From Thermodesulfobacteriota bacterium (GTDB lineage Bacteria; Desulfobacterota; RBG-13-43-22): a stretch of DNA of 64,000 bases. The DNA lies in the NCBI GenBank assembly GCA_040755035.1, contig JBFMBU010000082.1, positions 25,464 through 89,463 of the forward strand, in the 5' to 3' direction. Positions within the stretch are counted from its first letter, which is position 1. Every line of letters starts with the position of its first letter. A model generated the notes under the pieces. It did no database searches. It was not told the DNA's origin and worked only from the letters and a program-made list of their open reading frames with translations. Below, one piece after another: positions 27,813 to 39,543 of the stretch. A program made the translations under genes and the position numbers.

Positions 27813-28063
27813 ATTTGATCGCAAACCTACTCTTTGGGTAATCGCGCATAAAATCCCGCAGTTCTCGATTACTGGTAGGTACATAGCCCGTTGCTCTGCC
27901 GGACCCTGTGCAAATGAGCAAACCCATCGATCTTTTCCCCTTAGTTACCACTTTTGTTAGTTTGGTTTATTAATAATTTCTAACAAAGACCAATTTACAT
28001 TAATTCCAAATAATTAAAATCAAGTCCTGGGCTTTTTCATTTGTTAGAAAACGATTTTTATTG

Positions 28064-28468
28064 TTAATAATCATTCTTCTTTTCTATAGAAACCCATCTC
28101 GGTGCTGATCGTGTCCCCAAGTTATGGATAACTCTTTTGTCTCTCAACTCCATAATTAAGTTGTGGATCAGGGCGTATTTTTGCTCTCCGGTTAAAATTT
28201 CGGGTAATTTGTCAAATATAAGATGATTAATCTCTTTTCTCGAAACAGGCCCATGTTCTCGGATCAATTCCAAAATCAAATCCTTATAATACTTCCGATC
28301 AAGACCTCTGGTTCTGATGTGTTGGGCCTGCTTGCCTATAACCTTTGCAATTTTTGCGCTGATATATATATTTGGATATCTTCCTTCAACCAGACTGAGT
28401 TTTTTCAACCGTTGATGAGCCTCTCGCTCGATTCGGATTCCTTTTTGGACCTTGTCCAACGGGATCAC
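28064..28468 (-). pseudogene. C-terminal wHTH fragment of a degraded COG2865-like (AlbA_2/HATPase_c_4/HTH) regulator
   Basis: 134-aa winged-helix-like tail. Lies 118 bp and one frame away from the 28586..29050 fragment. The N-terminal AlbA_2 (Schlafen-like) domain of the family is absent. Confidence 0.4.
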
Positions 28469-28585
28469 CGCCCAGAGATCAAGGTCCGTTCCAAGACATT
28501 TCTTGCTATCGTTCTGAAAAGTTATATGGTTTTGGACCTATTTATCCTCGGAATTAAATTGGACCATTCGCGCATTAATTGCGCA

Positions 28586-29050
28586 CTAATTGGGCATTCC
28601 ACCTTTCTGTCTTTGTAAATACCTGACCGATCTTCCCTTCCCCTCCTTGATAAAAAGCCCCTTTTCAACCAATTCTATAAGATCTTTTAGGGATTGACGG
28701 CGGCTTATTTCACATAGCTTTTGATAATCACGGTTCGTGATATACCCGTGTTGCCTGGTATATTCAAGTCCCTTCTTCTGCCGTTCATTAAATTTTTGTT
28801 CTGTTGGCAGTGAAATTATTTTTTCGGGCTTTATAAAACGGGCCATAAAGAAACCAGATTCTGAGAAAAATTCCAGCTTAATACCAGTCCCAGCGCAGGC
28901 ATCTGCCATACGTAAGGTTCCGGTTCCCCAATGCTCGATCAATCGTGCCCGATAAAAGGCCAAGGCGATCTTTGGATTGCGAGGGAGCGAAGGGTGTTCT
29001 CGATAAAGGCTCTCAACGGAGAGGGTAGGCGGTAAGGTGCCGGGTTTCAA
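28586..29050 (-). pseudogene. HATPase_c_4 (RecG-C-terminal-like) + wHTH fragment of a COG2865-like regulator
   Basis: LIEHWGTGTLRM signature of the HATPase_c_4 family followed by a wHTH. The ORF is N-terminally truncated relative to full-length family members. Confidence 0.5.
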
Positions 29051-29106
29051 ACTTCAAGTCCACATTCGATCAGATAGGTTAATAAACTTCTTTAAGAAAA
29101 GTGAAG

Positions 29107-29691
29107 TTACCATTTTTTAGCGATTGAAACTGGAAGCCCTACTCGCATAAAAAATCGAGCAAAAGCTTGGGATAAATGCTCTCTGTAGGGTGGGAGTAAT
29201 CGAAATCTAGGGACATTTCGTTGTTGAAGCAACGATTCTAAAAATTGACGTGGAAGGTTAAAGACCTCTCGAAAGTCAACAATTCGAGTTTCGATATTCT
29301 GTTTCCCCAATTTGCATTCATTTATCATTGAAAAATTCCATATAAAGCCATCACAAATGCCATCGCATTGGGCTTTCCATGCTTTATCTGTTGGATTCTG
29401 AGTCCGGTTCTTCATTTCTGCTTCCCAGTCCTTCTTATATTCCGAGAGTGAAATGTGGGAGCAAAGAATTACATTGGGGACTTTATTCTGTTCAAGATCA
29501 CAGGCTTGTGTCATAACAACAACATCTGCAATGATCGATATAATAGCGTTTGATAGTACCTCTGCTTCTAAGCTGCCTTTCAAAGCCAAATTACCGGCCT
29601 CCCAAGTAACAATTGGGCAATTTGCAATAATATCCCCCTGAGTTAGAGGCCTATCAGCATCTACTATTTCGTACCACTGATTATTCATCAA
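29107..29691 (-). CDS. Hypothetical protein (island operon gene 3)
   Basis: 194 aa with no recognisable family. Its start overlaps the stop of the upstream gene by 11 bp. AT-rich codon usage. Confidence 0.5.
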   Translation of the reverse strand: MMNNQWYEIVDADRPLTQGDIIANCPIVTWEAGNLALKGSLEAEVLSNAIISIIADVVVMTQACDLEQNKVPNVILCSHISLSEYKKDWEAEMKNRTQNPTDKAWKAQCDGICDGFIWNFSMINECKLGKQNIETRIVDFREVFNLPRQFLESLLQQRNVPRFRLLPPYREHLSQAFARFFMRVGLPVSIAKKW

Positions 29692-30187
29692 TATCCTTCA
29701 TTATTCGGCTGCTGATTTCAATAAAAGGCTTCCAGCGAGGTAAATCATAAGTTTTTAGTGTTATTTTTTTCGAAAATAGCACGGTTCTTTTATGTGGAGG
29801 GGTGATGACCCTAAGCTGAGCCTCTGGTTCTGATTCCTCTGTTTGACAGGTTTGTGAGGAAGGCAAACAAGAAGTTATTGTAACTTGAGATTGTTCAAGC
29901 TGTTCTTCTGTGGCTTCGTATATCATATGAGGTCTCATTATTATTTCAGAAGGATTAAAACTACTCTCCTTCCCCCAATAATATTTTTCCCGTTTATGGG
30001 TTAATGAAAAAGTGGGGGCCAATGCCTTATCTCGATCTGAAAAAATAACGACAGGTGTGTTCTGTTTATTAGATTCTTCCCTTGAATTCGTTTTTAACAG
30101 AATAGGAAGGATAGCAAATGAGGTGGTAGTGGAATTAAAGTTATATTCTATCTCAGAATAAGAATACATATCTATAATTTCCTCCAT
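29681..30187 (-). CDS. Hypothetical protein (island operon gene 2)
   Basis: 168 aa with no recognisable family. Overlaps both neighbouring genes. Confidence 0.5.
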   Translation of the reverse strand: MEEIIDMYSYSEIEYNFNSTTTSFAILPILLKTNSREESNKQNTPVVIFSDRDKALAPTFSLTHKREKYYWGKESSFNPSEIIMRPHMIYEATEEQLEQSQVTITSCLPSSQTCQTEESEPEAQLRVITPPHKRTVLFSKKITLKTYDLPRWKPFIEISSRIMKDIDE

Positions 30188-30993
30188 ATTTTCTTTTGTA
30201 TCTCTTCACTTGTCAAATCTGCAAATCCACGAACGATCCATTCCCTGGCGAGGTCAAACCAGGACCACATTCTTTCAATCGATTTATCCTTTCCAATCCC
30301 CCTTACGGTTGATTCCATCATTATAATCGGAACATTAACATCCCGTGATACTCCATTGCGGATTTTAATGTGCAACCGTCCCGACTGATTTGGCAGAACA
30401 AAAGTAGTATTCCAATTGATTCCCTCTGGTTCTGGGAGAAAACGACTGTTTCCTTTTCCAATAATATGGTCCGGGAAAACCTTGCCAATTTCTTTTAAAG
30501 TCGTCCAAAGTTCATTCTGAGATATATGGTTAACGTAAGTCATTTCATATTGGAGAGGTTCTATAGGACCTAAATCGTTTTCTTTTAAAAAAGACTGAAA
30601 ATGCTCCAGACGATCTTTAAATATCGCAATAACCTCATGATACCGAGGATATGCATCATCCGGTCGGACCTTCTTCCAATTATGTAGAAACCGGTCCCTT
30701 TGTATCTGAATAATTCCTCTGCCGTCCGAATGGATAAACCAGATTCGAGGTAACGGTGGTTTGTCACTAAAAGCAAATTGAGCCTCAACTGGTCCTTCAA
30801 ATCGCTCAATAACCGGAGTTAATGGAGGAACTTCCTGGCAATTTGGATATTCACTTTTATACTTCTCCCAAATCACACCCAGGTGTGGAGCAAGCAGGGA
30901 TTCGATTGATTTAAAAAGAACTCCGCAAACCACCTCGATGACCGGGGGATTTTCATAACTGGGGAATTCTGTCTTTTTAATATTCATTTTCAT
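30172..30993 (-). CDS. TIGR04255-like conserved hypothetical protein (island operon gene 1)
   Basis: 273 aa. The N-terminal motif (YENPPVIEVVCGVLF) resembles the uncharacterised TIGR04255 family. Confidence 0.5.
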   Translation of the reverse strand: MKMNIKKTEFPSYENPPVIEVVCGVLFKSIESLLAPHLGVIWEKYKSEYPNCQEVPPLTPVIERFEGPVEAQFAFSDKPPLPRIWFIHSDGRGIIQIQRDRFLHNWKKVRPDDAYPRYHEVIAIFKDRLEHFQSFLKENDLGPIEPLQYEMTYVNHISQNELWTTLKEIGKVFPDHIIGKGNSRFLPEPEGINWNTTFVLPNQSGRLHIKIRNGVSRDVNVPIIMMESTVRGIGKDKSIERMWSWFDLAREWIVRGFADLTSEEIQKKIWRKL

Positions 30994-31126
30994 TTTCCTT
31001 AAAGACTTAACCGGCGTTTATCAATTATATTATACTTTTTCCCTCCAAATATATATATAAATTTAGTCACTACCCTCTCATTTTCAACTCTAAGTTTAAA
31101 AATCTACAATTATAACGCCACAATAT

Positions 31127-31447
31127 TTAAGTTTTATTAGAATATTCAATTAGTTTTATTTCATCAGAAGTTAAGTTATAAAGATCATAGACCAGCCGGT
31201 TGATTTCGGTTTCGAGCTGAGGAACAGAGGGGCTGTCGGGATCGGCCAGGATAGTCTGGACGAGTTTGATGATTGGGGCTTTTTGCTTTTCTGATGCAGG
31301 GAAAACAGGAACACCTCCCACATACATGGGTTTATATTGCAGGAACCCACCGGAACGGGTGGCAGCCTGAAGGCTGATCCACCATTTGCAAAGAAGTGAG
31401 TTTGAAACGGTTAAGAGGTAACGATCCTTTGTCGGGATGATATTTGC
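31127..31447 (-). pseudogene. C-terminal relic (about 107 codons) of a Type IIG/BREX-PglX-like N6-adenine DNA methyltransferase
   Basis: The frame is open from the stop at 31448-31450. It reads ...LLTVSNSLLCKWWISLQAATRSGGFLQYKPMYVGGVPVFPASEKQKAPIIKLVQTILA...EINRLVYDLYNLTSDEIKLIE, which are hallmark C-terminal motifs of these methyltransferases. There is no upstream methyltransferase body. Confidence 0.6.
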
Positions 31448-31632
31448 TCACAATCGTTACGAATGAAGGGACGAAGTTTCACACCATTCCCCGGCAGTAG
31501 AAACTTCTTTGAACTCCCTTTTTTTTATATAAGGAGCAATTTCTTCCTGGAGTTTTTGAAAGCTTTTCTTTGCCTCATCAAAACGAATTTGTTTATTTTT
31601 TTCAATTTGATTTTTAGATTCTATTTTATCAT

Positions 31633-32535
31633 TCATTTGTTTTCCTCTCTAATTCCTGCAGCAAATGAAAGGTTTTTACTTTCAATACATTTTGAAGATT
31701 TAGTCGAAACAAGGTTATTTGTTCGAATATACAACTCGTAAATCAACTCCCAAAATCTGTTTTTTACATCCTTTGATTCTATTTGTAGGCCGCATTGCTC
31801 TGCCTCTTCTCGGTAAATCGGTCTGCCATGTGTTTTGGTTCGCTCTGGTGTTAAAAATATTTTAATTTTATTTATTATTTCATCATTTGAAAATCCATTC
31901 ATCATACCGGAGGCGAGTGTTCTTATTGCAATATCTTCTGCCAAGGATTGGGCTGCCCTAAATTCCTTAATTTCCCTTTCATCATAATTTGCCAATTGCT
32001 GCAAATAAGGCTGCAAATTCCCCTTCTCGTTTACGGCTCTTAAAAATAAGTCGTCATAGCTCTCGATAACGTTATAAACTGAAAATCTTTTAACGGTATT
32101 ACCTTCGGGGATTGTGAGTTGGGGATCAATTGGGCCTAATTCTGATGTTGGCCCCATAATAATCTTGCTTGCCCCAAAACATATCATTGTTGCTGCAGAT
32201 TTTGCCTTTCCTGGTACAATTGCCCAATATTCGTCAGTTCCACTATAGCTCCTGCAGACATTAACTATCCTTTCAGCAGCAAGGCCATCACCACCGGGTG
32301 AATTAATAAATAACGCCAATCCCTTTGTCAGGTCTAGTTTTTGTAAAACCCCTTCTAACATATCAGCATCGGCATCTTCGATCATAACAGGGAACCTAAA
32401 ACTTGTAAAAAAAGAAACCACAGGCCTTTTGAGTTCTTTTTCCAACTGATCAAAAATTATTTGGCGCGTTTCATGCCCTTGGTGTTGTTCCGTTAAAACT
32501 CTCTGAATGACCGGATATGGATTTTCTTTTTTCAT
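31633..32535 (-). CDS. SDH-family Clp-fold serine protease (S49/ClpP-like)
   Basis: 300 aa. Contains LALFINSPGGDGLAAERI, the ClpP/S49 INSPGG-type active-site region. Confidence 0.65.
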   Translation of the reverse strand: MKKENPYPVIQRVLTEQHQGHETRQIIFDQLEKELKRPVVSFFTSFRFPVMIEDADADMLEGVLQKLDLTKGLALFINSPGGDGLAAERIVNVCRSYSGTDEYWAIVPGKAKSAATMICFGASKIIMGPTSELGPIDPQLTIPEGNTVKRFSVYNVIESYDDLFLRAVNEKGNLQPYLQQLANYDEREIKEFRAAQSLAEDIAIRTLASGMMNGFSNDEIINKIKIFLTPERTKTHGRPIYREEAEQCGLQIESKDVKNRFWELIYELYIRTNNLVSTKSSKCIESKNLSFAAGIREENK

Positions 32536-32596
32536 ACAATTTTCCTTTTCGAAATATTATAGCATAAAATTAATAGGAATTTATTATTATTTTAAT

Positions 32597-32806
32597 TTAA
32601 TTTCCTTCCTGTTTATTATTACCATAAGTTTCAACTAGTTCTATCTCCTCCGGTGTTAGGTTGTAGAGGCCATAGACGAGGTGGTTAATTTCGGTTTCGA
32701 GTTGGGGGACAGAGGGGCTGTCGGGATCGGCCAGGATGGTCTGGACGAGTTTGATGATTGGGGCTTTTTCACTGGCAGCAGCAAATGAGATAATCATCAT
32801 TCCCAT
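32597..32806 (-). pseudogene. Second, shorter copy of the methyltransferase C-terminal relic
   Basis: ASEKAPIIKLVQTILADPDSPSVPQLETEINHLVYGLYNLTPEEIELVE. About 110 bp of DNA (32662-32769) is roughly 93% identical to 31176-31283. Confidence 0.55.
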
Positions 32807-32854
32807 CTATTCCACTTCGGATCAGACAAACCCAAACTAATCAATTTTAGCTGA

Positions 32855-35464
32855 TTATTTTGATATTGTTTTTTGTATCAAAGCCCAATCAGTCCCTTTA
32901 GCCATAACGAACAAACATCTTCCCCCGCTTCTTTCAGCCCAAAGCTCCCCTACAACCCTTTTTTCTTTTGAATCATCATTGCTCCAGAGATGTTCTCCTT
33001 TAAATTCCACCACCAATATCCTATCATCCTGTAATTTGGCGATGAAATCGGGATAGAATCGGTCAGTAGAGGTTTGAAGCCAAAAGGATGTATCTCTGCG
33101 ACGTTCTAAATTCCGAACCCAATATTTTATTTGAGGCTGGCTGTCTAAGAATATGGCACAGTCCAATTCTTCCCCTTCGGATTTTAATTCTCCAATTGTT
33201 TTAAAAAAATGCTTTCGGAATTTGAATAAGCCTTCATAATACCAATTGGGGGCATACTTTTCTTCGATAAAACTAAAACAGAGTTCCGAATTAACTTCAA
33301 TCTTAAATGAATCCGGACCGAATAAGCATTGTTGGTAAGCCTTAAGGTTCTGAGAACGGCGGTGGTTTTGAATTTTTGACTCAAAGGCATTCTTTAACCG
33401 AAATTTTTCCCTGGCTAACCGCTCAATGGTTAGATCTCGGTGCTCGATTAGTCCACTGATCCCCTTATGGATGAAAAGACCGGTCTGGGTTTGGGGAATA
33501 TCCGGGTGGGGTATCTGACGGTCGATCCAATTTGCCAATGAGGCCACCGTCCAGCCCGGTTCCGAAGAAAGCCAGTCAAGTTGCTCATGGATTTTATCGA
33601 TAAAATGGACTTCAATCTTTCCTTGATCATCAACATCCAATTCCCCTGTGGACCCTGCAATCCTTTTTGAGGGAAATTCTCCTTCACTTAAAAAAGCGTC
33701 ACATTCAGATAGATTCCAATGAAAGTCCAAGAAGTGGCTTTCTTCAAACACCTCCAATTGATCCTCACTTCGGATCCCCATTAAGGGAATGATAAACTCA
33801 TCTTTCTTTCCTTGAGACGGCACTGACCCGTCGCCCCCCCTTGGTAATCTATCAAAAAGTTGCTTAATCGCGGTCTGATCCTCAAGACTACTCAAAGAAT
33901 TTAGAACACTCTGCCTTTCGGCGGCATTAAGATCTCCGGTTAAGGTCAATTTTCCGGTGCTTTGCTCATAAGATACTACTTGCTGAATTAAAGGAGACAG
34001 TTTTGATAAATCAGGGGGTTGGGAAATCCTTTCGAATAATGGCCCCGGATGGGTCACCCACCTGATTTGTTCATTGGGTATCACAAAATCATTGGCTTCT
34101 ATTCTTTGGAAACCGTTCTCAATGAGGGCATCCTTTAAGGCGTTGGCGGCTTCAATAAATTTAGGAGAGGCGACAAAGGCATAGGCACAATTTAATTCAG
34201 GGTGATTTTTCTTTTTTGCTCCCGGTAAACGGAGGACCCGGCCTAAAATTTGTTCTACCGCGCGGGAAGAACTGATTTCAGCTACGGAGCATAAGATGTA
34301 GGCAAAAGAACAATCCCAACCTTCCTTGAGGGCATACACCGTGATAATAAAACGAATGGGACAGGCAGGGTCAAATAAGTCAACATCATCAATCTGCCGG
34401 GTTTGACCGGTGGCTACGGCAATTTGCTCTTCTGGAATTTTAAAGTCTTCAATCAAACCCTTTCGGAGCGCTTCTACTGATAATGTTTGCTTTTCTTTGC
34501 TCTTAGGTTGAGCTTGTAACAGCACCAGAGGGCGGAGATATTCTCCCGTCAATTTTTCTTCTCTTTTTCCCATCTCCTCCAAGCTGCGCTGCATCTGGAG
34601 GGCTTCGGTAATAACCTCCTGCCAGTCCACATTGGTCGCCAACCTGATTGGAAGCTTTATCATTTCCTGGGTCTTTAGCTCGGCGGCCGACACATGACAC
34701 AAGACGTTACTGGCAAATAGTTCTTGGTCCGGTTTATGAATCATTTCAGGGGTGGCCGTAAACTCAATAATACAGGAAGGATTAAAACGGGCCAGTGTGT
34801 CGAAGGATAGTGGCGTTCGGGCATTATGGGCCTCATCCATAATAACAATGGGTCTCCATAGTCTTAAAACATTGGAAAGGGAATGCTGGAAAGTACTATC
34901 CTCTTCCCTGTCAAGACCTTCCTTAACTTTTTCGGACAAACCGGAAAAATGATGGGAAAGGGCACTGGAGGATTCATAAACCTTTCTGCCTTCTGTGTCC
35001 TCAACACGGAGGGCGGCTAAGGTTGAAACAATGATTGATGTCTCGCCCTCCAAGGTGCTTCTTTGGACATATAAGGCCTCGCTGATATCCATGACCCTGA
35101 CCAATCCTTCAAATTGAGCATCAAGCACTTGGCGGTAGGGATGTTCACGATTCCGTAAGGCAGCCAAGGTTTGGTCTTTAATAGCGTTTGAAGGGACCAG
35201 CCAGAGGCAAACGGCCCGTTCCGTTTGTAAAAAAGATCGTGCAGCAATCCCTAAAGTATGGCAGGCCATTAAGGTCTTTCCGCCGCCGGTAGGGACCCGA
35301 AGGCAAACATAAGGCAATTCAGGAAGTCGAGGAACAGACCGGTAAGGTCTTTCAGTTTGAAGCAGGAAGGCCCTTTTTGCACCCTCCAGGGTTGCCAGGC
35401 CCAAATAGGTCGTTAATTCCTCAAGACTTCGTCTCTGGTATTCTCGAAGTGGAAGCATGTTCAA
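32855..35464 (-). CDS. res: Type III restriction enzyme Res subunit (SF2 helicase + PD-(D/E)xK nuclease)
   Basis: Walker A (VPTGGGKT) and a DEAH box (VIMDEAHN). C-terminal nuclease motif (YPDF...VVEFKGE). Overlaps the end of mod by 4 bp. Confidence 0.85.
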   Translation of the reverse strand: MNMLPLREYQRRSLEELTTYLGLATLEGAKRAFLLQTERPYRSVPRLPELPYVCLRVPTGGGKTLMACHTLGIAARSFLQTERAVCLWLVPSNAIKDQTLAALRNREHPYRQVLDAQFEGLVRVMDISEALYVQRSTLEGETSIIVSTLAALRVEDTEGRKVYESSSALSHHFSGLSEKVKEGLDREEDSTFQHSLSNVLRLWRPIVIMDEAHNARTPLSFDTLARFNPSCIIEFTATPEMIHKPDQELFASNVLCHVSAAELKTQEMIKLPIRLATNVDWQEVITEALQMQRSLEEMGKREEKLTGEYLRPLVLLQAQPKSKEKQTLSVEALRKGLIEDFKIPEEQIAVATGQTRQIDDVDLFDPACPIRFIITVYALKEGWDCSFAYILCSVAEISSSRAVEQILGRVLRLPGAKKKNHPELNCAYAFVASPKFIEAANALKDALIENGFQRIEANDFVIPNEQIRWVTHPGPLFERISQPPDLSKLSPLIQQVVSYEQSTGKLTLTGDLNAAERQSVLNSLSSLEDQTAIKQLFDRLPRGGDGSVPSQGKKDEFIIPLMGIRSEDQLEVFEESHFLDFHWNLSECDAFLSEGEFPSKRIAGSTGELDVDDQGKIEVHFIDKIHEQLDWLSSEPGWTVASLANWIDRQIPHPDIPQTQTGLFIHKGISGLIEHRDLTIERLAREKFRLKNAFESKIQNHRRSQNLKAYQQCLFGPDSFKIEVNSELCFSFIEEKYAPNWYYEGLFKFRKHFFKTIGELKSEGEELDCAIFLDSQPQIKYWVRNLERRRDTSFWLQTSTDRFYPDFIAKLQDDRILVVEFKGEHLWSNDDSKEKRVVGELWAERSGGRCLFVMAKGTDWALIQKTISK

Positions 35465-37152
35465 CTGACCTTGATATCATATGGGATTTGTTTGAAGGTG
35501 ATTCCTTCTTTCCTGAGCCGGGTCTCCCCGATCCGACAACCCTCCCCATAAACAACTTTTGGCCCATCATGCCCGGGTAGGGCTTGAAGGACTTCAAGGG
35601 TCAATATATTACCGCCATTAGGCCGTTTGTCCCCCAGCACTCCATTAAACAAAAGAAAAATGGCCTGACCATTATGGATTCCTAAAAAAGGGGATTTCCC
35701 CTTTACCGTTTTAGGAATCGGCGAACCTGTCTCAGAAAAGAATACATGAGCTGATAGATCGGCAAAAGTAACCGTTGGGCGAATATTTCCGGCCTCATCA
35801 AAAAGCGGCTCCCCAAGCCTGCAATAGCGAAATCCTCCATCAAGTCCCGTGGTGTTCCCATAGCCGTTAACAGCCCTTGTTAGTCTTTGTGCCGTTACCT
35901 TGCGGCAGATGTTTTCATCCATCTCGACCAGGATAAAGCGCCGGTTTCCCCCATCCTCTTTGTTCAGGCCAAGGACAGCATGTCCGGTAGAACCACTGCC
36001 GGCAAAGGAATCAAGAACCAGAGAATCTTTGTCTGTCCCTATTTCTAAAATACGTTTGATCAATCGGGTTGGTTTTGGGGTAATAAAAACGGAGGCCGAA
36101 TCCTCAAAGTCACAAATAGCTACGAGTTCTTTTTTTGCATCCTGTGTATGGCCAACATCCTGGTAGCCCCATAGGGTTTGCGGAACGACACCTTGCTTAA
36201 CTTCGGATAAAAATCTTTTCAACTGCGGAATGGAATCCCCTTTTTTCCCCCACCAAATTCTCTTATCTGCATCAAGTTCAAGGAATTTTTCCTTTGCGTA
36301 TCGCCAGTATGCCCCCTTTGGTGGCCCCTCGATCACGCGTCCAGAAGGGCAGGTAATTGAATAGGTGCCTCTGCTGTAAGGGTTCCTTGCATCTAATCCG
36401 CTCGGTTTCCAAAGACCTCGGGGATCATTGTCTGGGTTTTTATATGCCTTGTCTTGCTTTATGGTTCGAGAGATAAGATTCGGGCGCCAGACATCCGCCG
36501 ACTTCGCATAGACAATGATATAATCATGATCTTCTGAAAAATGTTTTGCCGAATTTTTTGGAGAATAGACTTTTTGCCATATTACGGCTGCAATAAAGTT
36601 TCGCGGTCCAAAAACCTCATCCATCAGCATCCGAAGAGAGGACACTTCATTGTCATCAATACTGATAAAGATTGCCCCGTCCTCTGACAAGAATTCCCTT
36701 AAGAGCGAAAGACGTGGATACATCATGCACAACCATTTGTCGTGCCGGGAAAGATCCTCTGCCTCAGACCCTACCACCTTGCCCAGCCAACGCCTCATTT
36801 CAGGGCTATTGACGGCATCATTGTAAACCCAATTTTCATTGCCGGTATTATAGGGGGGATCGATATAGATACACTTGACCTTTCCGGCATAGAAGGGGAG
36901 CAAAGCCTTGAGGGCCAAAAGGTTATCACCCTGAACCAACAGATTCCCGCTGTCCAGGTCTCCAAGAGAAAGATTTTCTTCGTTATGTAAAAGATGATAG
37001 GGGACCTGACGGTGGTGATTCAAAACCGCCTTTTTCCCGATCCATTCAAGTGTTGGCATTTTATGCCCTTTTATTAAAAATAAATAATCTGAATCGAAAT
37101 ATATTTCATTTATCTTATTGATCGCGGTTTTGAAATATCTCCCCGAGATCAA
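35461..37152 (-). CDS. mod: Type III restriction-modification Mod subunit (N6-adenine DNA methyltransferase)
   Basis: DPPY motif (CIYIDPPYNTG) and an FxGxG region (VLDSFAGSGSTGHA). N-terminus resembles EcoP15I-Mod. The start may instead be MPTLEWIGK at 37056. Confidence 0.85.
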   Translation of the reverse strand: MISGRYFKTAINKINEIYFDSDYLFLIKGHKMPTLEWIGKKAVLNHHRQVPYHLLHNEENLSLGDLDSGNLLVQGDNLLALKALLPFYAGKVKCIYIDPPYNTGNENWVYNDAVNSPEMRRWLGKVVGSEAEDLSRHDKWLCMMYPRLSLLREFLSEDGAIFISIDDNEVSSLRMLMDEVFGPRNFIAAVIWQKVYSPKNSAKHFSEDHDYIIVYAKSADVWRPNLISRTIKQDKAYKNPDNDPRGLWKPSGLDARNPYSRGTYSITCPSGRVIEGPPKGAYWRYAKEKFLELDADKRIWWGKKGDSIPQLKRFLSEVKQGVVPQTLWGYQDVGHTQDAKKELVAICDFEDSASVFITPKPTRLIKRILEIGTDKDSLVLDSFAGSGSTGHAVLGLNKEDGGNRRFILVEMDENICRKVTAQRLTRAVNGYGNTTGLDGGFRYCRLGEPLFDEAGNIRPTVTFADLSAHVFFSETGSPIPKTVKGKSPFLGIHNGQAIFLLFNGVLGDKRPNGGNILTLEVLQALPGHDGPKVVYGEGCRIGETRLRKEGITFKQIPYDIKVS

Positions 37153-37157
37153 TTTGA

Positions 37158-37859
37158 TTACTTATGCAGGGCGTCGCCATATTCCAGAAAAAAATTCTCT
37201 ATCTGCTTCAAACGCCCTCCTTTGTCTGGTATCCCTTTTAAGATGAAGGACAGGTAAATCCGCCAGGCCGAATCCGGCAATTCCATATTGGATTCGGTCC
37301 ATCCGAATATCCAATGGGCAGGGATAATCTTGACAAAACCGGGCCAGTAATGTTGAAAAGCCTTTTCTTCTTCGCACAATAACAAATGATATCCGTAATC
37401 CTCGAGGATGTATTCAAGCCTTGACGGTCTTGGTTCTTCATCATCATCGAAGCCAGCCAAGAAATCCTGGTGGGGATCATCATAAACCAAGCCCTTAAGA
37501 TTTTCGATATCAGGATTTTCTTCGAAGTCTTCCGGAAAATCATAGGCGGGGTGTAACCCATGTGAGTTTTCATAAAACCCGGCATCCCAACCAAGAGAAA
37601 TTCCGGAATAATCTTTGCTGGTAAGAATGTAATCCCTGACCTTCTGCTGATTTTCCGTGAGGTCGATTTCACAATTATAAAGATAAGCATGGAGCCACTC
37701 TTCATAAGGGATTTCCTTATTGAAGTTTCCCTGGTCGTCTTTCGGATAATCGTTAAGACGGTAATCTTTCAGGATCAGCATATCCCTGTAAACCACTTCA
37801 TCCGGATAAGGGACAACCCATCCGTTATTAAGCACTTTTTGGATACGAAAAGATTCCAT
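37158..37859 (-). CDS. Acidic hypothetical protein co-operonic with mod-res
   Basis: 233 aa, very Asp/Glu-rich. Its stop lies 5 bp upstream of the annotated mod start. No recognisable domain. Confidence 0.5.
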   Translation of the reverse strand: MESFRIQKVLNNGWVVPYPDEVVYRDMLILKDYRLNDYPKDDQGNFNKEIPYEEWLHAYLYNCEIDLTENQQKVRDYILTSKDYSGISLGWDAGFYENSHGLHPAYDFPEDFEENPDIENLKGLVYDDPHQDFLAGFDDDEEPRPSRLEYILEDYGYHLLLCEEEKAFQHYWPGFVKIIPAHWIFGWTESNMELPDSAWRIYLSFILKGIPDKGGRLKQIENFFLEYGDALHK

Positions 37860-38166
37860 GGGGTTTTCCTATTATAATCTCCCTGGGAGTAATAAATACA
37901 TTTGCTTAATAATCAAAATGAAAGATTCCGTGAGATTGAAGTTTTTCTCATTGGTGATGAAGGTTAGGTCGGTGGTCATTTTTCCTAAAAGGAAAGATAT
38001 TAAATAAGAGGAATTATAGCAACCCTTGAAAATTAATCAATTATTTCTTTTATTAAGAATCGCAAGATAAACAAAATTAAATGACCTGGGGTTTAAAAGA
38101 GAAAAAAGTGCAATAGACCGTCGAACTCTTTAGGGGAATTTTTTTGTCACATGAAAAACGGTTTTT

Positions 38167-39543
38167 TCATACCTTTTTTTTCTTCCAGCGCCCCTTTTGG
38201 AAGTAAACAATATAGGCCGCCGCTCCGAAGACCAGGCTTAACACCAGGGCCCAGCGGATACCATAAACCCCCAGACCGGTCAGGCGCGGGAGCAGAAAAG
38301 CAGACGGTAAAAGAATCAGCCAGGTGCTGAGGATACTGATGAACATAGGGGGGAGGGTATCGCCACTGCCGGAAATGGCATTCTGCAGGCAGAGGATAAA
38401 TCCCTGCACCAAATAGCCGGTGGCGGCGATGCGGAGAAAAGTACTCCCGATTTGAATCAGTTCAGGTTCGATGGTAAACAGGCGCATCAGGGAGGGAGCC
38501 AGGAGCAGAACGGCAGCGGCGCAGAGGACCATAAAGCCCTCCAGGATAGCCGTGGCCATCCAGCCGGTTTGCTCGGCCCGCCGGGGTTGTTTGGCTCCCA
38601 GGTTTTGACCCACCAGGACCCCGGCCCCCATCCCCAGTCCCAGACCGGGCATAAGGACGAACATCTCCACCCGCTGATTGAGGGTATGGGCGGCCACAGC
38701 CAGGGTGCCGAAAGGAACCATGATTTTCATCAAAACCGTCTGTCCCAAATTCCCTTGAACACCCATGATCAGGGCCGGCAGGCCGATCCTGATCATTTGC
38801 CGGATGCAGACCAAGTCCAGTCGAAAACCCCGCAGGGTCAGTCTCAATCTTGAATTTTCACCAAGAAAAAGGATCCAGAGTGATATGAACATCCCCAGAG
38901 CCTGACCGATGATCATAGCCAGAGCTGCTCCCTGAACCCCGAGTCTGGGGAAAACCCACCAACCGAAGACCAGAAAAGGACTCAAAATAAGCTGGACGCT
39001 GCGGGTAAAGAGATGAATATACATTGGAGTCGTGGCATCCCCGGAGGATTGCATGAGACTGAAGGCCATCAGCCAGAGTGAATAAAAGATCCAACCGCCA
39101 AAGAGCATGCGCATATAATCAGCACCCAGGGCGGCCACCCCCGGCTTTAAGCCAAAAATACTCATTATTTGGGAGGAAAAAATTAAGCCGAGGAAACTAA
39201 AAAAGATCCCGTATAAGACGCTGACCACAAAGGCCTGGGTCCCGATATGATTGGCTCGTTGAAAATCACCACTTCCAATGGCTCTGGCCACCATAGCCCG
39301 AGCCCCGCCGACCAATCCCATTTTAGCTGAAAGGACCAACATATGGACAATAAAGGCTGTACCCACTCCAGCCACCGCCGCGGACCCCAGCCTTCCTATC
39401 CAGATCATATCCACGGTCTGCCCTACCATATAGAGGGCATTGTGGACCATGATCGGCCAGGACAGGGTGACAAGATTACCGGTGACGCTCCCCTGGACCC
39501 AGTTGCGTTGGGAAGACGATCTTTTTTCAGTGGTTGGTTTCAC
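38167..39543 (-). CDS. MATE family efflux transporter
   Basis: 458 aa with 12 transmembrane helices. MATE N-terminal signature (LSWPIMVHNALYMVGQTVDMIWIGRLG). Confidence 0.85.
   Translation of the reverse strand: MKPTTEKRSSSQRNWVQGSVTGNLVTLSWPIMVHNALYMVGQTVDMIWIGRLGSAAVAGVGTAFIVHMLVLSAKMGLVGGARAMVARAIGSGDFQRANHIGTQAFVVSVLYGIFFSFLGLIFSSQIMSIFGLKPGVAALGADYMRMLFGGWIFYSLWLMAFSLMQSSGDATTPMYIHLFTRSVQLILSPFLVFGWWVFPRLGVQGAALAMIIGQALGMFISLWILFLGENSRLRLTLRGFRLDLVCIRQMIRIGLPALIMGVQGNLGQTVLMKIMVPFGTLAVAAHTLNQRVEMFVLMPGLGLGMGAGVLVGQNLGAKQPRRAEQTGWMATAILEGFMVLCAAAVLLLAPSLMRLFTIEPELIQIGSTFLRIAATGYLVQGFILCLQNAISGSGDTLPPMFISILSTWLILLPSAFLLPRLTGLGVYGIRWALVLSLVFGAAAYIVYFQKGRWKKKKV

What the first reader, a model, noticed from the sequence alone, without database searches (positions are those of the whole stretch)
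32855..37859. Type III restriction-modification system with an extra, strongly acidic 233-aa ORF fused into the operon upstream of mod
The mod gene (DPPY methyltransferase) and res gene (DEAH helicase + PD-ExK nuclease) overlap by 4 bp, as usual. Unusually, a 233-aa Asp/Glu-rich protein with no recognisable domain ends 5 bp before the annotated mod start on the same strand. Acidic DNA-mimic-like proteins are normally anti-restriction factors. One embedded in a restriction-modification operon could be a control or specificity-modulating component, or a novel accessory subunit.
Basis: partly seen in the sequence, partly recalled or inferred. Interest (0 to 1): 0.55.

Follow-up and report, generated by a model that had tools for sequence, protein, structure and literature searches.

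The report
Acidic island gene heading restriction cargo
An ordinary Type III restriction-modification pair is preceded by a real, conserved, acidic protein of unknown fold. That protein is not part of the restriction enzyme: it is a free-standing gene of Syntrophales genomic islands that sits in front of many different defence genes.

Summary
The three ORFs exist as described, all on the minus strand. They are res (32855-35464), mod and a 233-aa acidic ORF (37158-37859; pI 4.5, net charge -25) with no known domain.

The claimed 5-bp gap to mod is an artefact of taking the longest ORF. Profile and homologue alignments put the mod start at ATG 37059, so the spacer is 98 nt.

The acidic protein belongs to a tiny unannotated family: 87 hits among 1.84 billion representative proteins. 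It is under strong purifying selection (dN/dS 0.07). Its predicted all-alpha fold is confident (pLDDT 90) and has no PDB or viral neighbour.

Close homologues occur only in Syntrophales-type islands, often near a P4-type integrase at a tRNA or tmRNA gene. What follows them varies: Type I, IIG or III RM, AbiE, Fic, a kinase, a Cas3-HD gene. The 85%-identical orthologue precedes a Type I hsdM. Plasmid homologues of this mod-res pair lack the gene.

It is therefore not a Type III subunit. It is an autonomous, probably non-enzymatic binding protein at the head of variable defence cargo. My best guess, which is an inference, is an anti-restriction or establishment factor. Interest is moderate.

The parts
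38013..38040 (-). Promoter-like site TTGATT-16 nt-(TG)TATAAT, about 150 nt upstream of the acidic ORF
   Evidence: 10 of 12 consensus matches with an extended -10 TG, the best site in 36900-38250. It is a consensus match only; function is inferred.
37872..37979 (-). 35-codon upstream mini-ORF with its own AGGAAA ribosome-binding site. It ends 12 nt before the acidic ORF and may be a leader or a gene remnant.
   Evidence: Read from the sequence. Not conserved upstream of the closest orthologue. A peptide search was uninformative.
37158..37859 (-). The 233-aa acidic protein (called ORF233 in this report), a member of a small unannotated family
   Evidence: pI 4.49, net -25; 87 hits among 1.84e9 representatives; pLDDT 90.1; no fold neighbour; dN/dS 0.069.
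37060..37157 (-). 98-nt AT-rich spacer between the acidic ORF and mod. It is predicted to be structured, with a 5-bp hairpin that includes the mod AUG.
   Evidence: -24.1 kcal/mol, z -3.0 against shuffles; no promoter or terminator called on this strand.
35461..37059 (-). Type III mod (532 aa; DPPY N6-adenine methyltransferase). True start is ATG 37059.
   Evidence: MTase_III 3e-212, protein residues 1-531 on profile positions 1-541 of 542; homologues start at the same Met.
32855..35464 (-). Type III res (869 aa from TTG 35464, or 867 aa from ATG 35458). It carries the DEAH helicase motif and a C-terminal PD-(D/E)xK.
   Evidence: ResIII 4e-14; REase_III 1.8e-133.
27900..38100 (.). Low-GC island (0.33-0.50 against about 0.52-0.59 in the flanking MATE and GTPase genes) between plsY and a MATE transporter gene. 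No integrase or tRNA in the window.

Best explanation
**Shown.** The locus is an intact, ordinary Type III RM pair (mod 35461-37059, res 32855-35464). It lies in a 10-kb low-GC island. Upstream of it sits an independent gene, ORF233.

ORF233 belongs to a very small, unannotated family of acidic, mostly alpha-helical proteins. The family has a conserved N-terminal core, a length-variable acidic middle and a conserved neutral C-terminal 41 residues. There is no catalytic-looking motif and no known fold neighbour.

In Syntrophales-type genomes it is a single-copy gene of integrative islands. Some of these have a P4-type integrase at a tmRNA or tRNA gene. ORF233 always points towards a variable block of defence genes. 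That block is usually some type of RM, but also AbiE, Fic, a kinase or a Cas3-HD gene. Its phylogeny follows the upstream island backbone, not the downstream cargo.

**Inferred.**
- In the window it is probably co-transcribed with mod-res from the promoter-like site at 38040-38013.
- It works on its own as a binding or inhibitor protein, not as a subunit of any one enzyme.
- The most likely role (about 35%) is an anti-restriction or establishment factor of the island. It would blunt restriction, either of the recipient or of newly swapped-in cargo, by occupying a nucleic-acid-binding surface with its acidic segment.

The confidence figure refers mainly to the shown architecture; the functional guess is much weaker.
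For: **Type III identity and mod start:**

**Real, constrained gene:**
- 29 clusters at 45-85% identity.
- dN/dS 0.069.
- pLDDT 90.1.

**Tiny unannotated family:**
- 87 hits at E<=1e-3 among 1.84e9 representatives.
- All members named 'hypothetical'.
- No consistent Pfam hit across 50 members.
- No PDB or BFVD neighbour: E>0.5, TM<=0.21.

**Acidity conserved family-wide:** median pI 4.5; median net charge -21 (close members) and -18 (distant members). It is concentrated in a middle segment that varies from 25 to 102 aa.

**Island context:**
- Integrase next to tmRNA (L001) and tRNA-Ser (L017).
- DUF932 and M78/MPTase-PolyVal-like peptidase genes adjacent in L017, L016 and L025.

**Variable cargo:**

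**Closest orthologue:** 83% nucleotide identity confined to the ORF, followed by Type I hsdM.

**Phylogeny:** the tree tracks the upstream backbone.

**Autonomy:**
- Distant members are singletons.
- One copy per locus.
- The window clade lacks the HSP70-TPR and VIT-vWA neighbours yet is under purifying selection.

**Co-transcription:** a strong promoter-like site upstream and nothing called in the spacer.

**Precedent:** defence and anti-defence genes co-occur in island hotspots (abstract of PMC12629846).
Against: **Against the functional guess:**
- No experiment and no fold or sequence link to any known anti-restriction protein (ArdA, Ocr and KlcA are in the PDB; none matched).
- No family member in plasmids, phages or IMG/VR viral contigs, where anti-restriction genes are usually found.
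- A restriction inhibitor co-transcribed with a restriction system would seem self-defeating unless it is selective or unstable.
- Acidity is moderate (-0.11 per residue), weaker than my recollection of Ocr and ArdA.
- Much of the acidity sits in loops rather than on an extended surface.

**Against the architecture:**
- The census rests on about 15 distinct loci from one bacterial order, many on short contigs.
- The spacer is structured and ends in a U-run, so partial termination, or an independent weak mod promoter in AT-rich DNA, is not excluded.
Confidence: 0.55

Rival explanations
1. ORF233 is the third component of an upstream module. That module is either a WYL regulator plus an HSP70-NBD/TPR 800-aa protein, or MerR plus a VIT-vWA protein of about 790 aa. 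Together they would form a candidate defence or conflict system. The window copy would be an orphan left after its partners were lost.
For: - ORF233 lies 12 nt after the HSP70-TPR gene (L003-8, L013, L022) and 56-206 nt after the VIT-vWA gene (L009, L010, L012).
- ORF233 clades follow the type of upstream module.
- WYL regulators are known to head defence systems (title and abstract of PMC9122601).
Against: - The two large proteins are unrelated. Neither matches a PADLOC model.
- Other genes intervene: a 178-aa ORF in L001, and DUF932 plus an 88-aa ORF in L017.
- The window, L043 and L044 lack both modules, yet the gene is under strong purifying selection (dN/dS 0.069).
- Distant relatives are singletons.
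- Vertical descent of island lineages can explain the clade tracking.
Confidence: 0.2
2. ORF233 is a control, specificity-modulating or accessory subunit of this Type III restriction-modification enzyme.
For: - It is on the same strand and 98 nt upstream of mod.
- No promoter or terminator was called between them.
- L017 has a 57%-identical mod within 2 kb downstream of an ORF233 homologue.
Against: - It is absent from the whole plasmid collection, which holds 246 records with Mod homologues. The four inspected loci have other genes upstream.
- Its closest orthologue precedes a Type I hsdM.
- Downstream partners differ within every clade.
- The protein is acidic and has no HTH, so it is not a C-protein-like or RptR-like DNA binder.
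Confidence: 0.05
3. ORF233 has no role in defence or anti-defence. It is simply a conserved backbone gene that serves as the homology anchor at the edge of a cargo-exchange hotspot. Its biochemical function would lie elsewhere, for example as a chaperone-like protein or an immunity protein to an unlinked toxin.
For: - Nucleotide identity between the window and L043 ends exactly at the ORF borders, with different genes on both sides.
- Cargo is variable, and only on the downstream side.
- Distant relatives sit among housekeeping genes.
Against: - RM or other defence genes lie directly downstream in most close loci. A Type IIG RM is the only companion in the two-gene islet L036.
- There are no paralogue arrays and no adjacent toxin of the kind typical for immunity genes.
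- There are no Pfam Imm-family hits.
Confidence: 0.2

Closest known systems
Type III restriction-modification systems (EcoP15I/EcoP1I type, Mod2Res)
   Same: - mod-then-res order and tight coupling.
- DPPY N6-adenine methyltransferase.
- Res with a DEAH helicase motif and a C-terminal PD-(D/E)xK.
- Full-length matches to the PADLOC MTase_III and REase_III models.
   Different: Nothing unusual in the enzyme genes themselves. The upstream acidic gene is not a feature of the family and is missing from homologous mod-res loci.
RM-proximal regulators: RptR (PMC12255303) and C (controller) proteins of Type II systems
   Same: A small conserved gene at the head of RM or defence operons, found in front of different cargo.
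   Different: According to its abstract, RptR is a small DNA-binding repressor tied to Type I RM. C-proteins are HTH proteins (my own knowledge). ORF233 is 233 aa, has pI 4.5 and no HTH or any Pfam domain, so direct DNA binding is unlikely.
Acidic DNA-mimic anti-restriction proteins (ArdA, Ocr)
   Same: - Single autonomous gene with net negative charge conserved across the family.
- Carried on mobile DNA (here integrative islands) and near other establishment-type genes (DUF932, zincin/M78-like peptidase).
   Different: - No sequence or fold similarity.
- Weaker charge density.
- Absent from plasmids, phages and viral contigs.
- Co-oriented with the host's own restriction genes.
- No functional test.
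Conserved flanking genes of defence hotspots in genomic islands (for example the Pseudomonas GI hotspots, PMC12629846)
   Same: A conserved gene next to a highly variable defence cargo, inside tRNA- or tmRNA-integrated islands with P4-type integrases.
   Different: - No conserved gene was identified on the far side of the cargo.
- The family is confined to Syntrophales-type genomes for close members.
- Both flanks of ORF233 can differ.

Membership tests
Type III restriction-modification system (mod + res) | Mod: N6_N4 methyltransferase with a DPPY catalytic motif, full-length match to Type III Mod profiles | tested here: met
   Pfam N6_N4_Mtase 3.5e-41. PADLOC MTase_III 3e-212 over protein residues 1-531 and profile positions 1-541 of 542. 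IYIDPPYNTG in the translation.
Type III restriction-modification system (mod + res) | Res: superfamily-2 helicase motifs plus a C-terminal PD-(D/E)xK nuclease, encoded directly after mod | tested here: met
   ResIII 4e-14. REase_III 1.8e-133. MDEAH and PDF..VVEFKG in the translation. Start within 6 nt of the mod stop.
Type III RM accessory or specificity subunit (ORF233 as part of the enzyme) | Co-occurrence with homologous mod-res pairs | tested here: not met
   - No ORF233 match anywhere in the plasmid collection, which holds 246 records with Mod homologues.
- Four loci inspected lack it.
- Only 1 of about 14 other family loci has a homologous mod, and it is not adjacent.
Type III RM accessory or specificity subunit (ORF233 as part of the enzyme) | Physical association with Mod/Res, or an effect on activity or specificity | not testable with these tools
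   Needs pull-down, reconstitution or complex prediction.
ArdA/Ocr-type DNA-mimic anti-restriction proteins | Strong net negative charge, conserved in the family | tested here: met
   pI 4.49, net -25. Family median pI 4.5, net -18 to -21. The charge density is moderate.
ArdA/Ocr-type DNA-mimic anti-restriction proteins | Sequence or fold similarity to ArdA, Ocr or other solved mimics | tested here: not met
ArdA/Ocr-type DNA-mimic anti-restriction proteins | Carried by plasmids, phages or conjugative elements | tested here: inconclusive
   None in PLSDB, INPHARED or IMG/VR. Present in tRNA- or tmRNA-integrated islands with P4-type integrase.
ArdA/Ocr-type DNA-mimic anti-restriction proteins | Inhibits restriction in vivo or in vitro | not testable with these tools
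   Needs an experiment.
C-protein / RptR-type RM-proximal transcriptional regulators | DNA-binding (HTH) domain | tested here: not met
   No Pfam or NCBIfam domain. Acidic pI.
C-protein / RptR-type RM-proximal transcriptional regulators | Located at the head of RM operons | tested here: met
   An RM gene on the same strand within about 3 kb downstream in 8 of 11 informative close loci.
Polymorphic-toxin immunity proteins | Adjacent cognate toxin gene, paralogue arrays, and a match to Imm families | tested here: not met
   One copy per locus and no paralogues. No Imm Pfam hits. No conserved toxin neighbour. A zeta-toxin gene is adjacent in one distant locus only.

The most novel reading that the evidence does not exclude
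ORF233 defines a new class of type-independent 'restriction-cargo leader' proteins. It would be an acidic, non-DNA-binding factor encoded at the head of exchangeable RM or defence cassettes in genomic islands. Its role would be to transiently neutralise nucleases, its own cargo or the recipient's. That would let islands swap in or deliver new restriction systems without killing the cell. This would be a protein-level counterpart of C-protein timing control that works across Type I, IIG and III systems.
Probability: 0.12. Interest if true: 0.75.

Novelty: new variant of a known kind. Interest (0 to 1): 0.38.

Why it matters
The Type III system itself is routine. The value lies in the upstream gene. 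It is a strongly constrained, confidently folded protein family with no annotation and no structural neighbour. It is repeatedly placed in front of different restriction and defence cassettes in the islands of a poorly studied anaerobe lineage.

If it proves to be an anti-restriction or establishment factor, it would add a new fold to the anti-defence repertoire. It would also help explain how islands exchange toxic restriction cargo.

If it is only a hotspot anchor, it is still a practical marker for finding new defence cargo in Syntrophales metagenomes. That includes the unrecognised WYL + HSP70-TPR and MerR + VIT-vWA modules next to it.

Tried and rejected
- **Domain searches.** Pfam, PHROGs, NCBIfam and PADLOC on ORF233 gave nothing. 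The only hit was a PADLOC REase_II match at E 0.021 and 12.6 bits with no significant stretch, which I treat as chance.
- **Pfam on 50 members at E<=10.** No family was hit by more than 2 members.
- **Mobile-element collections.** IMG/VR, PLSDB and INPHARED contain no member of the family.
- **Shared domain in the upstream neighbours.** I tested whether the HSP70-TPR and VIT-vWA proteins share a domain that could explain a common partner. They show no similarity.
- **Conserved non-coding motif.** I looked for a recombination site or operator just upstream or downstream of ORF233 across 18 loci. None was convincing.
- **Paralogues.** There are no ORF233 paralogues inside the islands.
- **Rfam on 32500-38300.** Nothing.
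- **Short peptide searches.** The 35-aa upstream mini-ORF and the duplicated 66-aa ORF were uninformative against plasmids.
- **My recollection about the duplicated ORF.** I recalled that the duplicated 66/69-aa ORF resembles the C-terminus of Type IIG or Eco57I-like methyltransferases. I could not verify this.
- **Literature.** There are no papers on BrxR plus Hsp70, or on an acidic protein upstream of Type III mod.
- **L032-L035.** These 'relatives' are only 40-59-aa C-terminal remnants, not family members.
Full report
**1. What is in the sequence**

On the minus strand the window carries three ORFs: res (32855-35464, 869 aa), mod (longest ORF 35461-37152) and a 233-aa ORF (37158-37859).
- Mod has Pfam N6_N4_Mtase (3.5e-41) and the motif IYIDPPYNTG.
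- Res has ResIII, MDEAH and a C-terminal PD...EFK.
- The PADLOC Type III models match both over nearly full length: MTase_III 3e-212 and REase_III 1.8e-133.

This is an intact, ordinary Type III RM pair.

The 233-aa protein (ORF233) has 46 acidic and 21 basic residues, giving net -25 and pI 4.49. It is the most acidic of the 52 ORFs of at least 150 aa in the window. It has no significant match in Pfam, PHROGs, NCBIfam or PADLOC.

**2. The mod start and the 'fusion'**

The 5-bp spacing depends on a TTG at 37152 that merely opens the longest ORF. Several lines place the real start at ATG 37059.
- The ATG-37059 version aligns residues 1-531 to positions 1-541 of 542 of the PADLOC profile.
- 13 of the 15 best plasmid homologues align from residue 1.
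- In four annotated plasmid loci the CDS begins exactly at that residue.
- AAGGG precedes this ATG, whereas nothing Shine-Dalgarno-like precedes the TTG.

The spacer is therefore 98 nt.
- The consensus scan calls no promoter or terminator on this strand in the spacer.
- It finds a strong promoter-like site (TTGATT-16-TGnTATAAT, 10 of 12 matches) at 38040-38013, upstream of ORF233.
- Co-transcription is plausible but inferred.
- The spacer folds better than shuffled sequence (z -3.0). It has an AU-rich stem followed by U5 and a small hairpin holding the mod AUG. Attenuation or separate control is therefore not excluded.
- The 4-bp mod/res overlap holds only for a TTG start of res; an ATG lies 6 nt further on.

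**3. ORF233 is a real, constrained, unannotated protein**
- A word-indexed search found 29 clusters of 230-273 aa at 45-85% identity. All are metagenomic and none has a Pfam domain.
- A profile search of 1.84 billion representative proteins found only 87 hits at E<=1e-3, and 18 at <=1e-30.
- Against its closest orthologue (85% aa, 83% nt), 79 of 120 nucleotide differences are at third codon positions, and dN/dS is 0.069.
- AlphaFold2 on the 30-sequence alignment gives pLDDT 90.1 and pTM 0.86. The model has eight helices plus an N-terminal hairpin.
- Foldseek finds no neighbour in the PDB (best E 0.53, TM<=0.20) or in BFVD. Profile searches of PDB sequences find nothing.

Distant members of 170-235 aa come from Pyrinomonadaceae, Armatimonadaceae and other MAGs, and are all 'hypothetical'. 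They keep three features:
- an N-terminal core with the motifs KDYRLN..P.D..G and Y..WLADYL;
- a C-terminal 41-residue core with the motif D.GWRVPLA..LK..K.ERI..L..FF..Y..K;
- between them, an acidic segment of variable length, 25-102 aa, with median net charge -11.

Acidity is a family trait, with median pI 4.5. The invariant residues are aromatic or aliphatic plus R200, Q71, D196 and R216. There is no catalytic-looking constellation, which points to a binding protein; this is an inference.

**4. Where the family lives**

Named genomes with close members are Syntrophus, Smithellaceae and 'Deltaproteobacteria' MAGs. There are none in IMG/VR, PLSDB plasmids or INPHARED phages.

Fifteen or so distinct loci were mapped.

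*Upstream neighbours* fall into three groups:
- a divergent WYL regulator plus an 800-aa HSP70-NBD/TPR protein (L001, L003-8/L013/L022, L024, L026/27);
- a MerR-like gene plus a VIT-vWA protein of about 790 aa (L009, L010/11/18/19, L012, L017);
- in the window's own clade, unrelated genes: a MATE transporter here and an amine-oxidase-like gene in L044.

A P4-type integrase lies 2-7 kb upstream in L001, L010 and L017. It is next to the tmRNA gene in L001 and next to tRNA-Ser in L017. A DUF932 gene (L017) and M78/MPTase-PolyVal-like peptidase genes (L016, L025) are directly adjacent in some loci.

*Downstream neighbours*, always on the same strand, vary:

| Locus | Genes downstream of ORF233 |
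|---|---|
| Window | Type III mod-res |
| L043 | Type I hsdM |
| L016 | A ResIII gene |
| L025 | M78 peptidase, then Type I hsdM-hsdS |
| L009 | abiEi/abiEii, then a Type IIG-like methylase and an EcoEI-type R gene |
| L017 | abiEi/abiEii, then a Type III mod 57% identical to ours |
| L001 | Three small genes, then an SNF2 helicase and an N6_N4 methylase |
| L022 | Fic/RhuM, a YhcG fragment, then methylase-AAA_15-DUF4276-ResIII |
| L010 | Pol-beta nucleotidyltransferase, then an HsdM_N fragment |
| L012 | Ser/Thr kinase-TPR-FHA |
| L014 | HD/Cas3-HD gene |
| L045 | IS91-type transposase |

An RM gene of some type therefore lies within about 3 kb downstream in 8 of 11 informative close loci, and upstream in none.

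A neighbour-joining tree of ORF233 groups sequences by upstream backbone (vWA clade, HSP70-TPR clade, window clade). Downstream cargo differs within each clade.

Between the window and L043, nucleotide similarity starts and stops at the ORF borders. There is one copy per locus and no paralogues.

Distant members are singletons:
- one forms a two-gene islet with a divergent MmeI-type IIG enzyme (L036);
- one sits next to a zeta-toxin gene (L037);
- the others lie between housekeeping genes (L038-L042).

**5.

- Homologues of this Mod occur in 246 plasmid records, and ORF233 gives no tblastn match anywhere in that plasmid collection.
- Four mod-res loci at 43-54% identity have other genes upstream: a divergent helicase, SIR2, hypotheticals, and a 78-aa 'transcription factor'.

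The accessory-subunit or specificity reading for Type III is therefore not supported. A broader, type-independent association with restriction cargo is supported.

**6. How it most likely works**

Shown:
- ORF233 is an autonomous, single-copy, strongly constrained, acidic, probably non-enzymatic protein of integrative islands.
- It is oriented towards variable defence cargo.

Inferred:
- In the window it is transcribed with mod-res from the 38040-38013 promoter.
- It acts as a binder or inhibitor.

My preferred function (about 35%) is an anti-restriction or establishment factor of the island.
- Against: no similarity to known mimics, absence from plasmids and phages, moderate charge density, and the awkwardness of co-expressing an inhibitor with a restriction enzyme.

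Rivals:
- It is the third component of the WYL + HSP70-TPR or MerR + VIT-vWA modules (about 20%). This is weakened by intervening genes, by the two large proteins being unrelated, and by the partner-less but constrained window clade.
- It is a mere hotspot anchor with an unrelated function (about 20%).
- It is a Type III subunit (about 5%).

**7. Comparison with known systems**

The enzyme genes are standard Type III. ORF233 resembles RptR and C-proteins only in position: it has no HTH and is acidic. It resembles ArdA and Ocr only in charge and mobility, and fold similarity was tested and not met. The architecture is closest to conserved flanking genes of defence hotspots in tRNA-integrated islands.

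**8. Verdict**

- Novelty: the RM pair is ordinary. The upstream family is uncharacterised with no known fold neighbour, so I rate the whole as a new variant of a known kind of island or hotspot architecture.
- Interest is moderate (0.38). The most novel reading not excluded is a type-independent restriction-cargo leader that tames nucleases (probability about 0.12).

Noticed in passing
window 37872-37979 (-): A 35-codon mini-ORF (MTTDLTFITNEKNFNLTESFILIIKQMYLLLPGRL) has its own AGGAAA ribosome-binding site. It lies between the strong promoter-like site and ORF233 and ends 12 nt before the ORF233 ATG. It could be a leader peptide or the stump of a displaced gene. It is not conserved upstream of the closest orthologue.
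   Followed up: partly
window 37060-37157 (-): The ORF233-mod spacer folds better than shuffles (-24.1 kcal/mol, z -3.0). It has an AU-rich long-range stem followed by UUUUU, and a 5-bp hairpin (GGCAU-AAA-AUGCC) that includes the mod start codon. This could be attenuation or translational control.
   Followed up: partly
window 31127-31284 and 32612-32769: A 158-nt direct repeat (82% identity) encodes the ends of two 66/69-aa ORFs (...KAPIIKLVQTILADPDSPSVPQLETEIN.LVY.LYNLT..EI..). The copies bracket an SDH/ClpP-like serine protease gene (31633-32535) and a 59-aa ORF. It looks like a gene split or duplicated by an insertion. From memory it resembles a methyltransferase C-terminus, which I could not verify.
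   Followed up: partly
window 29107-30993 (-): Three overlapping ORFs: a TIGR04255-family protein (273 aa), then 168-aa and 194-aa ORFs with no Pfam, NCBIfam or PADLOC match (PADLOC was not run on the 194-aa ORF). They look like a compact operon of unknown function inside the same low-GC island.
   Followed up: no
window 28064-29050 (-): Two adjacent short ORFs lie at the plsY-proximal edge of the island. One (28586-29050) carries a HATPase_c_4 piece and clusters with the intact 466-aa AlbA_2 + HATPase_c_4 gene of L009. It is probably a decayed gene.
   Followed up: no
L001 3750-7308; L003 4450-7988; L009 4556-7301; L017 5835-8592: Two recurrent two-gene modules lie next to P4-type integrases: a divergent WYL regulator plus an 800-aa HSP70-NBD/TPR protein, and a MerR-like gene plus a VIT-vWA protein of about 790 aa. 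Neither large protein matches any PADLOC model. They may be uncharacterised defence or conflict modules.
   Followed up: partly
L003 10797-16708 (same as L022 12797-19890): An N6_N4 methylase (835 aa) and a ResIII protein (939 aa) are separated by an AAA_15/AAA_21 ATPase (381 aa) and a DUF4276 protein (203 aa). This is a Type III-like RM with an embedded two-gene ATPase module.
   Followed up: no
L032 9201-9377; L033 378-554; L034 10001-10177: A 59-aa C-terminal remnant of the ORF233 family (42% identity) lies directly upstream of, and slightly overlapping, a 793-aa HD/Cas3-HD gene. The same gene family follows an intact ORF233 in L014. This suggests the gene has decayed in place in front of the same cargo.
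   Followed up: partly
L050 3755-3991 (Vibrio parahaemolyticus plasmid pVpR13_55Kb): In this homologous Type III locus, a 78-aa annotated 'transcription factor' ends 10 nt before mod. It is a different, probably C-protein-like, upstream leader gene.
   Followed up: no
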